Below, piece by piece: positions 17,849 through 18,906 of a stretch of DNA of 53,023 nucleotides (positions within the stretch are counted from its first letter, which is position 1; each line of letters starts with the position of its first letter). The position numbers and the translations under genes are program-made. The notes under the pieces were generated by a model. It worked only from the letters and a program-made list of their open reading frames with translations, did no database searches and was not told where the DNA came from. Source of the stretch: a virus. Taxonomy: Duplodnaviria > Caudoviricetes. The stretch is from the IMG/VR virus record IMGVR_UViG_3300012988_000007, positions 1 through 53,023 of that record. One strand, given 5' to 3'.

Positions 17849-17915
17849 GATAGTGCCTTATATGGCTGGGCTGCGCTTGTACGTATGTCTGACAGATCGG
17901 AAAGACGATCACAAA

Positions 17916-17940
17916 GCCGAAAGGCAATCGTTCTTTAAAA
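17916..17940 (+). promoter_or_regulatory. boxB-like GNRA hairpin plus boxA-like site 1
   Basis: GCC-GAAA-GGC followed by AATCGTTCTTTAAAA. Confidence 0.6.
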
Positions 17941-18034
17941 TAAACAGTAATATCAATAATCATACACATCAACTGCCTGATGGGGCATACTGCATTAGCT
18001 AACAAACCATCTGGTGTATGAGTAAGATAAAGCT

Positions 18035-18105
18035 GGTCATGTAGTATAGGGGTTAGTACGCACTGTGAAGATGGTGAAACATTGGTTCGATTCCAATCAT
18101 GATAC
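18035..18105 (+). tRNA. tRNA-like RNA 1 (GAA in a 6-nt loop; atypical or pseudo-Phe)
   Basis: Acceptor GTCATG/CATGAT, T8A9, D stem GTAT/GTAC, T arm ATTGG-TTCGATT-CCAAT; anticodon arm CACTG-TGAAGA-TGGTG. Confidence 0.7.
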
Positions 18106-18109
18106 AAAT

Positions 18110-18126
18110 ATTTCTTTAAAATATTG
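18110..18126 (+). promoter_or_regulatory. boxA-like site downstream of tRNA-like RNA 1
   Basis: ATTTCTTTAAAATATTG resembles the rRNA-spacer boxA. Confidence 0.4.
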
Positions 18127-18256
18127 AAATTCAAATACTAGCTACATTATGAAGCCATAACTGAGATGGATTATGACCTCAGCAAACAAAACCGAATCGG
18201 CAATCCCGTCCGAAGGCGGAAATGATATGGGAATGAGGGGTAGCTCCCCTCTCAAA

Positions 18257-18283
18257 CCTAGCAATAGGAATCGTTCTTTGAAG
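18257..18283 (+). promoter_or_regulatory. boxB-like GNRA hairpin plus boxA-like site 2
   Basis: CCTA-GCAA-TAGG followed by AATCGTTCTTTGAAG. Confidence 0.6.
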
Positions 18284-18295
18284 TATTAAAAACAT

Positions 18296-18351
18296 GGGTA
18301 GGTGTTCAACGACTGATAATCGTAGCATGTCTGATAAACAATGGCCTACCC
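18296..18351 (+). ncRNA. Three-way-junction RNA with two CTGATAA loops
   Basis: GGGTAGGT/GCCTACCC closing stem; ACGA-CTGATAA-TCGT and TGT-CTGATAA-ACA. Confidence 0.6.
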
Positions 18352-18579
18352 GCTTAAACAGGCTATTGCGGTGAGAGGACAATAGTACATTTGGTAGATG
18401 TCCCGTTAAGTTGGGAAGGGTACTTGCTTTAGTCCTGTTTTTAAAGACATTACCCATAAACAATGCTTTTAGCGAAGGTTACTATTCAAGGTGGATAATG
18501 CTACGACACTTGGAATTATAGTAACACCAAGAAAGAGTAAGTGCATTTGATCTTGGACTTGTTTATGGTGTTAATTGGA

Positions 18580-18648
18580 ATGTGTTTAGTCAAGTGGTAT
18601 AATTGCCCCCGAATGGGGTAGTCTCACGTTCGATTCGTGAAACACATC
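18580..18648 (+). tRNA. tRNA-like RNA 2 (non-canonical anticodon arm with central GAA)
   Basis: Perfect acceptor ATGTGTT/AACACAT; T arm TCACG-TTCGATT-CGTGA; weak D stem; TGCCCC-CGAAT-GGGGTA. Confidence 0.7.
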
Positions 18649-18754
18649 AAATAAAATATTAACTGCGAAGCGATCTAAGTAGGCGTACTTTGGCAACCGA
18701 TAGCAACACGATGTACTGATAACTTGGTACTACGCAAACGTGGGTTAATAAGGA

Positions 18755-18829
18755 TCTTTTTTAGTGTAATGGTAGCACATTGGTACGCCTTTATGGAGCC
18801 AAAAGAGCAGTTCGAGTCTGCAAAAAGAG
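18755..18829 (+). tRNA. tRNA-like RNA 3 (13-nt expanded anticodon loop)
   Basis: Acceptor TCTTTTT/AAAAAGA; D arm GTGT-AATGGTA-GCAC; TTGGT-ACGCCTTTATGGA-GCCAA; T arm GCAG-TTCGAGT-CTGC. Confidence 0.7.
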
Positions 18830-18873
18830 CACACAAATAGCGACAGCAGAAGCTATTAAGGGCTATTCGCCCA

Positions 18874-18906
18874 GCCCACCGACTGCGTATTTCGGTGGGT
18901 GTTTTT
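18874..18906 (+). terminator. Terminator-like hairpin closing the RNA array
   Basis: GCCCACCGA-N9-TCGGTGGGT followed by GTTTTT. Confidence 0.6.

What the first reader, a model, noticed from the sequence alone, without database searches (positions are those of the whole stretch)
17850..18905. 1-kb polycistronic array of structured RNAs: candidate tRNA-mimic/decoy system
Seen: in an otherwise gene-dense genome, about 1.05 kb has no substantial sense ORF. It splits into roughly ten self-closing domains separated by A-rich linkers (closing stems at 17960/18021, 18296/18351, 18356/18440, 18454/18568, 18657/18750) plus three tRNA-shaped units. It follows a consensus promoter (17530-17561), is punctuated by boxA-like sites and ends in a terminator-like hairpin. 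No unit is a normal decoding tRNA. Known: phage tRNA regions can counter anticodon nucleases and can host large ncRNAs such as GOLLD and ROOL. Inference: an antiterminated precursor processed into small RNAs that act as decoys or inhibitors of tRNA-targeting defences or tRNA-binding proteins, or one large undescribed ncRNA.
Basis: partly seen in the sequence, partly recalled or inferred. Interest (0 to 1): 0.88.

Follow-up and report, generated by a model that had tools for sequence, protein, structure and literature searches.

The report
Phage island of tRNA look-alike RNAs
A soil phage of Bacteroidota carries a one-kilobase gene-free stretch that most likely makes a chain of small folded RNAs, including three tRNA look-alikes that cannot read codons normally and a tiny hairpin shared by very many unrelated phages, but what these RNAs do is still unknown.

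Summary
Window 17850-18905 has no plus-strand ORF over 49 aa and no protein-family match. It is the most stem-rich kilobase of this complete 53-kb phage: 16 perfect inverted repeats against 5.1±2.1 in shuffles. A Bacteroidota-type promoter and a small ORF lie upstream, and a strong terminator ends it. It holds three tRNA-shaped units with abnormal anticodon arms and three copies of a boxA-like motif.

New here: the first unit (17892-17911) belongs to a short hairpin family, UGRCR-stem-GGANAGAC-stem. Its exact 20-mer occurs in 42 metagenome stretches, 19 IMG/VR contigs and 6 bacterial genomes with unrelated flanks. These copies are always co-oriented with tRNA genes and often 4-9 nt from them. 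This scan had already noted the same hairpin, and arrays of non-decoding tRNA look-alikes, on other DNA.

Two other metagenomes hold single units at 98-100% identity, while the neighbouring coding gene is only about 77% identical. That argues for modular, selected RNAs.

Not shown:
- transcription
- processing
- covariation for any unit except the hairpin
- any decoy function

No alignable relatives of the other units were found. Decayed tRNA genes remain a serious rival. A single large ncRNA is not supported.

The parts
17530..17561 (+). Bacteroidota-type promoter (-33 TTTG, -7 TAnnTTTG)
   Evidence: Pattern match: 7 in the window against 2.4 expected. The consensus is recalled from my own knowledge.
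17612..17848 (+). Small ORF (78 aa) between the promoter and the RNA block, probably co-transcribed
   Evidence: No Pfam match, and only a weak PHROG hit at E 0.004. A relative in run X3 keeps part of it at about 77% identity (14 differences in 61 nt).
17864..17871 (+). 5' arm of a possible long-range 8-bp helix with 18869-18876 that would bracket the whole block
   Evidence: Read. Inverted repeat I23 and the whole-region MFE pair these ends. It is untested and competes with local hairpins.
17890..17912 (+). Pan-phage hairpin: UGACA, 5-bp stem, GAAAGA loop, 3' A
   Evidence: The exact 20-mer occurs in 42 metagenome, 19 IMG/VR and 6 genome stretches. It is a member of the UGRCR-stem-GGANAGAC-stem family.
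17916..17925 (+). Small GCC-GAAA-GGC hairpin
   Evidence: A relative in run X2 has 5 extra letters within and next to this hairpin's tetraloop and is otherwise identical over 17831-17942.
17926..17942 (+). boxA-like motif, copy 1
   Evidence: Repeat family D1. The core GTTCTTT(A/G)A also lies about 150 nt before the 16S gene of one Bacteroidota genome.
17957..18024 (+). Long hairpin domain
   Evidence: z -1.25. Run X3 is 98% identical over 17887-18054, with 3 differences in 168 nt.
18035..18105 (+). tRNA look-alike 1: 6-nt anticodon loop UGAAGA and a G1.A72 mismatch
   Evidence: ARAGORN and Rfam tRNA at 35 bits. The body is closest to a Bacteroidota tRNA-Glu(UUC), 74% over 69 nt.
18107..18123 (+). 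boxA-like motif, copy 2
18137..18268 (+). Multi-hairpin domain with GNRA-type loops
   Evidence: z -1.34. Its 3' part, 18232-18325, is present in run X2 with 12 differences in 94 nt.
18269..18285 (+). boxA-like motif, copy 3
18296..18351 (+). 56-nt three-way unit with two CUGAUAA loops, identical to a tRNA-Ile(GAU) anticodon loop
   Evidence: Three of the window's 13 CTGATAA copies lie in this 1-kb region. The same loop is seen in the tRNA-Ile of L234.
18356..18441 (+). Multibranch domain
   Evidence: z -1.33. 18369-18441 is identical in run X2, and the sequence diverges just beyond the domain's end.
18454..18568 (+). Three-way junction domain, the best folded of the set
   Evidence: 10-bp perfect closing stem. 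z -3.40, with 0 of 200 shuffles as stable.
18580..18648 (+). tRNA look-alike 2: GAA in a CCGAAUG loop (C33, U37) and a weak D arm
   Evidence: ARAGORN only. No Rfam tRNA match at E up to 10. z -2.34.
18657..18750 (+). Self-closing domain holding the third CUGAUAA
   Evidence: (z -0.44).
18755..18830 (+). tRNA look-alike 3: all-A/U acceptor stem, 4-bp T stem, extended and mismatched anticodon arm showing CCUUUAU
   Evidence: Called tRNA-Lys(UUU) only at a relaxed ARAGORN threshold. Missed by default ARAGORN and by Rfam.
18874..18906 (+). Intrinsic terminator (8-9-bp GC-rich stem, 9-nt loop, T run)
   Evidence: block 18833-18905, z -3.91.

Best explanation
The stretch is a phage 'stable-RNA island': one untranslated transcription unit that yields a chain of small folded RNAs.

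Inferred path:
1. Transcription starts at the Bacteroidota-type promoter at 17530-17561 and runs through a 78-codon ORF.
2. It continues for about 1 kb without translation. The three boxA-like elements, of the kind used in ribosomal RNA operons, may protect it from Rho.
3. It stops at the terminator at 18874-18906.
4. Host tRNA-processing enzymes (RNase P, RNase Z or E) would cut the precursor at the three tRNA-shaped units and the A-rich linkers, releasing the modules.

The modules are:
- one copy of a pan-phage hairpin (UGRCR, short stem, GGANAGAC loop) that elsewhere sits a few bases from tRNA genes
- three tRNA look-alikes that keep acceptor and T arms but have anticodon arms unfit for normal decoding
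- several further hairpin and multibranch domains, some showing tRNA-like anticodon loops

Shown: the absence of ORFs, the excess of stems, the signals, the tRNA-like shapes, the membership of the hairpin family, and the mosaic high conservation of single units.

Inferred: transcription as one precursor, processing, antitermination, and any role of the products. My guess for that role is interaction with the host's tRNA-handling or tRNA-attacking proteins.
For: - No coding signal: the longest sense ORF is 49 aa, and 0 of 6 internal ORFs match Pfam or PHROGs. A relative has a 5-nt insertion inside the 49-aa ORF amid otherwise identical sequence.
- Stem excess: 16 against 5.1±2.1, with 0 of 200 shuffles reaching 16, and the genome-wide maximum.
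- Promoter, terminator and repeated boxA-like motif. The same GTTCTTTGA core lies in the 16S leader of one Bacteroidota genome.
- tRNA-like calls. These are the only tRNA-shaped genes in the complete phage.
- Hairpin copies: exact copies occur in 30 non-redundant contexts among 61 loci. In those loci 185 motif hairpins lie on the same strand and 3 on the other. All 67 ARAGORN tRNAs are co-oriented, and several lie 4-9 nt away.
- Modular conservation: run X3 keeps 17887-18054 at 98%, yet the upstream gene is only about 77% identical and 100 nt in between are replaced. Run X2 keeps 17831-17942 and 18369-18441 without substitutions and diverges at or close to the unit ends.
- A parallel architecture without sequence similarity: L014 has four T-arm-bearing units (only one a normal tRNA by default ARAGORN), two motif hairpins and a terminator in 0.87 kb without ORFs.
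- Independent phage tRNA look-alikes with 6-nt anticodon loops: 6 of 203 ARAGORN calls in the fetched loci.
Against: - No RNA data exist.
- No alignable homologue was found for any unit except the hairpin, so no covariation test was possible. The searches were blastn against 34+61 loci, 8 IMG/VR scans, and 401 Bacteroidota genomes.
- Most single domains fold no better than shuffles: z -0.1 to -1.9, and +0.3 for look-alike 3.
- Look-alikes 2 and 3 are weak tRNA matches.
- The few substitutions listed in relatives lie in loops or linkers. One pair, 18266/18267, would turn one base pair of a 4-bp hairpin into G.U and another into C.A. There is therefore no compensatory evidence.
- The boxA reading rests on one rRNA leader. 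The motif does not accompany the hairpin elsewhere (3 of 30 contexts).
- The hairpin's pair counts are partly circular, because I picked copies by requiring three pairs.
Confidence: 0.5

Rival explanations
1. It is a decaying tRNA gene cluster. The three tRNA-shaped units are pseudogenes left from a once-normal phage tRNA array. The rest is spacer that still carries old processing hairpins and has no present function.
For: - Phages that share the neighbouring SPFH lipoprotein gene often carry normal tRNA arrays and even tmRNA next to it.
- Look-alike 1 has a G1.A72 mismatch and a body like tRNA-Glu but a non-matching anticodon arm.
- Look-alike 2 has a degenerate D arm.
- Look-alike 3 has an all-A/U acceptor stem and a 4-bp T stem.
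- Most domains have weak folding z-scores.
Against: - Single units are 98-100% identical in two other metagenomes, while the adjacent coding gene is about 77% identical.
- The lesions sit in the anticodon arms while T arms and acceptor stems stay paired. The same holds for independent 6-nt-loop look-alikes in other phages.
- Promoter and terminator are intact.
- One kilobase of junk is unusual in a gene-dense 53-kb phage.
- Stem density is the highest in the genome.
Confidence: 0.25
2. It is a cis-acting untranslated region. It could be a long 3' UTR or leader that controls read-through, stability or timing of the flanking genes (boxA antitermination plus attenuators), and it releases no trans-acting RNAs.
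For: - It lies between a promoter-proximal small ORF and a strong terminator.
- It has three boxA-like motifs.
- In other phages the family hairpin often lies 25-45 nt upstream of start codons.
Against: - The terminator closes the unit before the next gene.
- tRNA-shaped units are natural RNase P/Z substrates and would fragment a UTR.
- The units occur separately in other contexts.
Confidence: 0.1
3. It is one large structured ncRNA of a new class, comparable to GOLLD or ROOL, which lie near phage tRNAs.
For: - The size and the location beside tRNA-like genes fit.
- There is a possible 8-bp pairing of the two ends, 17864-71 with 18869-76.
Against: - No Rfam match at E up to 10.
- Domains close locally.
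- Relatives keep single units and replace their neighbours.
- The end-to-end helix competes with the terminator and a local hairpin.
Confidence: 0.07
4. It holds unrecognised small protein genes.
For: ORFs of 36-49 aa exist on the plus strand, and of 53-143 aa on the minus strand.
Against: - 0 of 6 match Pfam or PHROGs.
- A 5-nt insertion in a near-identical relative would frameshift the 49-aa ORF.
- The surrounding genes all run on the plus strand.
- The minus-strand ORFs overlap tRNA-like units antisense.
Confidence: 0.03

Closest known systems
Small stable RNAs (species 1 and 2, rnaC/rnaD) in the tRNA gene cluster of phage T4 (recalled from my own knowledge; no sequence compared here)
   Same: Non-tRNA structured RNAs encoded among phage tRNA genes. 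They are presumably cut from the same precursor by host tRNA-processing enzymes, and their function is unknown.
   Different: This phage has no normal tRNA at all. Here the tRNA-shaped units themselves are aberrant, and the block is longer and holds more modules. Homology was not testable.
Phage tRNAs that counter anticodon nucleases
   Same: Phage-borne tRNA-shaped genes with altered anticodon loops. The loops shown here resemble Phe (GAA), Lys (UUU) and Ile (GAU).
   Different: Those tRNAs still decode. The units here have 6-nt, C33/U37 or 13-nt loops and probably cannot. No nuclease or partner is known for this host.
Lambda-type boxB and rRNA-operon boxA antitermination elements
   Same: A short hairpin with a purine-rich GA-type loop followed by a boxA-like GTTCTTT(A/G)A element, in an untranslated operon.
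   Different: The loop has six bases and a fixed GGANAGAC, and there is a conserved 5' UGRCR. No N-like protein is known. The hairpin occurs without boxA in 27 of 30 contexts. Binding of Nus factors is untested.
Y RNAs (YrlA type) with Ro60/Rsr
   Same: Small RNAs that imitate tRNA parts. Earlier notes of this scan describe phage arrays of such RNAs beside Ro60-like genes.
   Different: No Ro60/TROVE or DUF2828 gene in this phage. No Rfam Y-RNA match.

Membership tests
Canonical decoding tRNA (Rfam RF00005) | Cloverleaf scoring above the Rfam cut-off of 29 bits | tested here: inconclusive
   Unit 1 scores 35 bits. Units 2 and 3 give no tRNA match at E up to 10. ARAGORN calls unit 2 at default and unit 3 only at a relaxed threshold.
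Canonical decoding tRNA (Rfam RF00005) | 7-nt anticodon loop with U33 and a purine at 37, on a 5-bp stem | tested here: not met
   Unit 1 has a 6-nt loop. Unit 2 has C33 and U37. Unit 3 has C33 and a mismatched, extended stem (drawings).
Pan-phage GGANAGAC hairpin (uncatalogued; noted earlier by this scan) | 5' UGRCR, a 3-5-bp stem of free sequence, a G-C closing pair around GANAGA, then mostly a 3' A | tested here: met
   Window 17890-17912 fits. Its 20-mer is identical in 61 loci plus 6 genome stretches. 28 distinct copies are aligned. Stem pairs show 4-6 pair types each, but that is partly circular because copies were picked for at least 3 pairs.
Pan-phage GGANAGAC hairpin (uncatalogued; noted earlier by this scan) | Same strand as neighbouring genes and tRNAs, intergenic, often next to tRNA or folded RNAs | tested here: met
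   185 copies on the plus strand against 3 on the minus strand in 61 loci. 67 of 67 tRNAs are co-oriented. In the window it opens the RNA block.
rRNA-operon type boxA antitermination | boxA sequence as in the host phylum's rrn leaders | tested here: inconclusive
   The core GTTCTTT(A/G)A matches the leader of one Cytophagales genome, so n = 1. Exact CGTTCTTTRAA occurs twice in the window, both times in this region.
rRNA-operon type boxA antitermination | Binding of NusB/NusE and read-through of terminators | not testable with these tools
   Needs biochemistry or reporters.
Large phage-linked ncRNAs (GOLLD, ROOL) and any other Rfam family | Match to the family covariance model | tested here: not met
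   Only tRNA passes the gathering score. At E up to 10 there are only chance-level hits to unrelated families. That GOLLD and ROOL are in Rfam 15 is recalled, not checked.
tmRNA | tRNA-like ends around a tag reading frame and pseudoknots | tested here: not met
   ARAGORN and Rfam find none in the window. Both do find tmRNA in L016 and L019.
Y RNA with Ro60 | Ro60/TROVE or DUF2828 gene nearby, and a Y-RNA model match | tested here: not met
   No match to PF05731 or PF11443 in the complete phage. The DUF2828 search rang in no control genome, so that blank is weak. No Rfam match.
Type III toxin-antitoxin RNA array (ToxI-like) | Tandem direct repeats of about 36 nt next to a toxin gene | tested here: not met
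   The only direct repeat family with more than two copies is the 17-nt motif at spacings of 181 and 162 nt. No toxin family appeared among 41 ORFs scanned.

The most novel reading that the evidence does not exclude
The block is an anti-defence decoy battery. It would be a processed set of non-decoding tRNA bodies and free-standing anticodon-loop imitations (Ile-GAU three times, GAA twice, a Lys-UUU-like loop). These would soak up host anticodon nucleases or other tRNA-binding defence proteins. It would be delivered together with the pan-phage GGANAGAC hairpin, which would then be a universal module recognised by a factor conserved across bacterial phyla. Two untested post-hoc leads for that factor: the hairpin's fixed bases coincide with 23S rRNA 2048-2063 (the helix 73 strand and the A2058 loop), and its GANAG is complementary to positions 32-36 of tRNA-Glu/Asp anticodon loops.
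Probability: 0.15. Interest if true: 0.85.

Novelty: new variant of a known kind. Interest (0 to 1): 0.58.

Why it matters
Phage tRNA regions are usually read as codon-supply or anti-nuclease devices made of working tRNAs. Here a complete phage carries no working tRNA. It has only a compact, signal-bracketed chain of tRNA look-alikes and other folded modules, one of which recurs verbatim in phages of gut, soil, fresh and sea water and in prophages of at least four bacterial phyla.

If these RNAs are made and processed, they point to a class of small phage RNAs acting on very conserved host machinery. No catalogue entry was found for them in Rfam, and my four paper searches found no description. 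The hairpin alone is a tractable target: it is 22 nt, has a fixed loop, and could be used directly for a pull-down.

Tried and rejected
Homologue hunting, mostly blank:
- blastn of 17500-19100 against 50,697 phage records: no match.
- The 34 IMG/VR loci that share the neighbouring lipoprotein gene share only that gene.
- Three flanking proteins (20164-20793, 15794-16354, 17612-17848) have no IMG/VR relatives.
- A 20-mer from 18369-18441 has no IMG/VR match.
- 401 Bacteroidota genomes gave only short AT-rich chance matches plus one tRNA-Glu.

Gapped patterns for the odd anticodon arms:
- They returned 12 and 118 or more stretches, about what chance predicts.
- Only 11 of the 130 pattern matches read back from the fetched loci overlapped ARAGORN tRNAs.
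- They showed that the arm of look-alike 1 resembles the loop and 3' stem of a normal tRNA-His. My first idea, that it copies 23S helix 72, is therefore dropped.

rRNA mimicry:
- 9-mer sharing between the region and an E. coli rrn operon is within the shuffle range: 43 against a mean of 23 and a maximum of 46.
- The hairpin consensus written as a pattern does hit 23S 2048-2063, but so do 127 of 3000 shuffles of 16S+23S. It is kept only as a weak lead.

Other checks:
- boxA next to the hairpin elsewhere: 3 of 30 contexts.
- Shared neighbour protein of the hairpin: none. No family occurs in more than 2 of 93 flanking ORFs.
- Isoacceptor identity of the three look-alikes by alignment to 155 unique phage tRNAs: no clear answer.

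RNA evidence:
- No RNA holder is listed.
- Contigs of runs X2 and X3 cover only parts of the region. Uncovered parts say nothing.

Papers:
- Four searches found no description of the hairpin.
- I read passages of PMC7449152, and only listings or abstract starts of the others.
- Supplements were not consulted.
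Full report
**What the window is.** The window is a complete IMG/VR virus record of 53,023 nt with direct terminal repeats. Almost all genes run on the plus strand.
- The large terminase is closest, at 37% identity, to those of Cellulophaga and Flavobacterium phages.
- The genome uses promoters of the TTTG...TAnnTTTG kind: 7 matches against 2.4 expected. 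The consensus is recalled from my own knowledge.
- The host is therefore most likely a member of Bacteroidota. The source sample is labelled soil.

**Checking the observation.**
- Coding potential: between 17850 and 18905 the longest sense ORF has 49 codons and starts with GTG. Six ORFs inside the region, on both strands, were scanned against Pfam and PHROGs, and none matched.
- Stem density: I counted perfect inverted repeats of at least 7 bp with arms 30-125 nt apart. The region has 16. 200 dinucleotide-preserving shuffles of it give 5.1±2.1, and none reaches 16. The mean over 1056-nt bins of the window is 7.8±3.1, and the five richest sliding windows all start at 17.9-18.3 kb. The excess of local stems is therefore real.
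- Folding energies: single units are mostly ordinary, with z from +0.3 to -1.9. The exceptions are 18452-18570 (-3.4), 18580-18648 (-2.3) and the terminator block (-3.9).
- Signals: the promoter at 17530-17561, a 78-codon ORF (17612-17848), and a terminator with an 8-9-bp GC-rich stem and a T run (18874-18906) bracket the block.
- Repeat: a 17-nt motif recurs at 17926, 18107 and 18269. Its core GTTCTTT(A/G)A is also found about 150 nt before the 16S gene of a Cytophagales genome, where a boxA would be expected. That is one genome only.

**The tRNA-shaped units.** These three are the only tRNA-shaped genes of the phage. None carries an encoded CCA.
- Unit 1 (18035-18105) passes Rfam tRNA at 35 bits against a cut-off of 29. 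It has a 6-nt anticodon loop and a G1.A72 mismatch. Its body is closest to a bacterial tRNA-Glu(UUC), 74% over 69 nt, but the anticodon arm does not match.
- Unit 2 (18580-18648) is called only by ARAGORN. It shows GAA in a loop with C33 and U37 and has a poor D arm.
- Unit 3 (18755-18830) is called only at a relaxed threshold. It has an all-A/U acceptor stem, a 4-bp T stem and a long mismatched anticodon arm showing CCUUUAU.
- Similar look-alikes occur in other phages fetched here. They have clean acceptor and T arms and a 6-nt anticodon loop, and make up 6 of 203 ARAGORN calls.

**The new finding: the first unit is a pan-phage hairpin.** Contigs from two other metagenomes pointed to 17887-17917 as conserved.
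- Occurrence: a 20-mer from there (17892-17911) has exact matches in 42 metagenome stretches, 19 IMG/VR contigs and 6 of 185,579 species genomes. One of the six, in a Nitrospinaceae genome, lacks the conserved G before the 20-mer and looks like a coding coincidence.
- Contexts: the 61 virus and metagenome loci fall into 30 unrelated contexts. They share nothing else with the window.
- Shape: the element is a hairpin with a 5-bp stem and a GAAAGA loop, preceded by UGACA.
- Other copies in the same loci keep the loop and flank but change the stem. These loci hold 185 motif hairpins on the same strand as the 20-mer copy and 3 on the other strand.
- Consensus: 72 distinct 40-mers give UGRCR, a 3-5-bp stem, GGANAGAC, the complementary stem, then mostly A.
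- tRNA linkage: all 67 tRNAs in these loci are co-oriented, and several lie 4-9 nt from the hairpin.
- Unbiased frequency: in 1.42 Mb of viral DNA fetched for other reasons there are 9 octamer hairpins with at least 3 pairs, close to chance for that criterion. Seven of them have at least 4 pairs, where I estimate about 2.4 by chance, and about four carry the 5' flank.
- Pair counts on 28 distinct copies show 4-6 pair types per stem position. This is partly circular, because I chose copies by requiring three pairs.
- Partners and catalogues: no neighbouring protein family recurs, with at most 2 of 93 flanking ORFs per family. No Rfam family sits on the hairpin.
- A bacterial case: one locus (L073) is bacterial. 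It carries two tandem copies between a 16S gene and tRNA-Ile.
- Earlier notes of this scan had already described the same hairpin on other genomes as widespread and uncatalogued, sitting just ahead of tRNAs. My result agrees and was reached independently.

**Modularity.**
- Run X3 (soil) holds 17887-18054 with 3 differences in 168 nt. In the same contig the upstream gene has 14 differences in 61 nt, and the 100 nt between are replaced by 95 other letters.
- Run X2 (fresh water) holds 17831-17942 with no substitution but 5 inserted letters within and next to the GAAA loop. It holds 18369-18441 with no difference, followed by divergence just past the unit's end. It holds 18232-18325 with 12 differences.
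- This is what selected, exchangeable RNA modules would look like. These are short contigs, and the listed substitutions give no compensatory pair. One doublet, 18266/18267, would weaken a 4-bp hairpin.

**A parallel case.** L014 is a phage that shares only the SPFH lipoprotein gene (69% identity). It has 0.87 kb without ORFs holding four units with near-identical T arms. Only one of them is a normal tRNA-Leu by default ARAGORN. It also has two motif hairpins and a terminator. It has no sequence similarity to the window apart from the hairpin. Earlier notes of the scan report further arrays of non-decoding tRNA look-alikes.

**Leads that weakened on testing.**
- The hairpin's fixed bases equal E. 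coli 23S rRNA 2048-2063, and a B. subtilis primer string in PMC7449152 matches 14 of 16. But the consensus pattern also occurs in 127 of 3000 shuffles of 16S+23S, so this is only a 4% coincidence found post hoc.
- The arm of unit 1 matches 23S helix 72 over 11 nt. It equally matches the loop of a normal tRNA-His.
- CUGAUAA, the anticodon loop of tRNA-Ile(GAU) as seen in L234, occurs three times in the region out of 13 copies in the window. I expect about 0.26.
- The phage has no Ro60-like gene. Among 41 non-structural ORFs, none matched an RNA-repair or integrase family. The structural module was left out of that scan.

**Reading.**
- Most likely (about 0.5) this is a stable-RNA island. It would be transcribed as one untranslated precursor, possibly protected by boxA-type antitermination, and cut by host tRNA-processing enzymes into small RNAs whose role is unknown.
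- A decayed tRNA cluster is the main rival (0.25).
- A purely cis-acting UTR (0.1), one large ncRNA (0.07) and hidden peptides (0.03) follow.

**Limits.**
- No RNA run is listed.
- Paper supplements were not seen.

Noticed in passing
L073 (metagenome contig), oriented positions about 1-1900: A bacterial 16S rRNA gene whose 3' part appears interrupted, with a group II intron domain match between the main 16S match and a 16S 3'-end-like sequence. It is followed by two tandem GGAAAGAC hairpins and then tRNA-Ile(GAU). This is the only cellular rRNA-operon context of the hairpin that I saw.
   Followed up: partly
L047 and 19 similar loci (human-gut and IMG/VR contigs): Six tandem copies of the hairpin with different stems lie within about 200 nt. 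An orphan T-arm-like element about 290 nt downstream is not called as a tRNA.
   Followed up: partly
L016 5445-5849 and L019 2511-2862: Phage-borne tmRNA genes (Rfam 81 and 70 bits) lie among tRNA genes, next to the same SPFH lipoprotein gene as in the window.
   Followed up: no
window 19086-19913: An SPFH/band-7 lipoprotein gene (PF01145, phrog_200) has 1979 relatives at E <= 1e-60. It recurs next to tRNA arrays in otherwise unrelated phages, like a mobile accessory gene.
   Followed up: partly
window 17864-17871 with 18869-18876: A perfect 8-bp GC-rich complementarity between the two ends of the RNA block recalls the processing stalks that bracket rRNAs. It may be chance: I estimate a few per cent.
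   Followed up: no
L003 4890-4961, L017 5483-5555, L019 4788-4861, L188 11146-11216: Otherwise well-formed phage tRNA genes with 6-nt anticodon loops. ARAGORN gives them a two-letter 'anticodon', and two of them score 40 and 53 bits on Rfam tRNA.
   Followed up: partly
window 45997-46941 and 48705-49487: One of the 41 scanned ORFs matches the Pfam patatin-like phospholipase family. I saw the minus-strand gene block near 47-50 kb only in the ORF list and did not study it.
   Followed up: no
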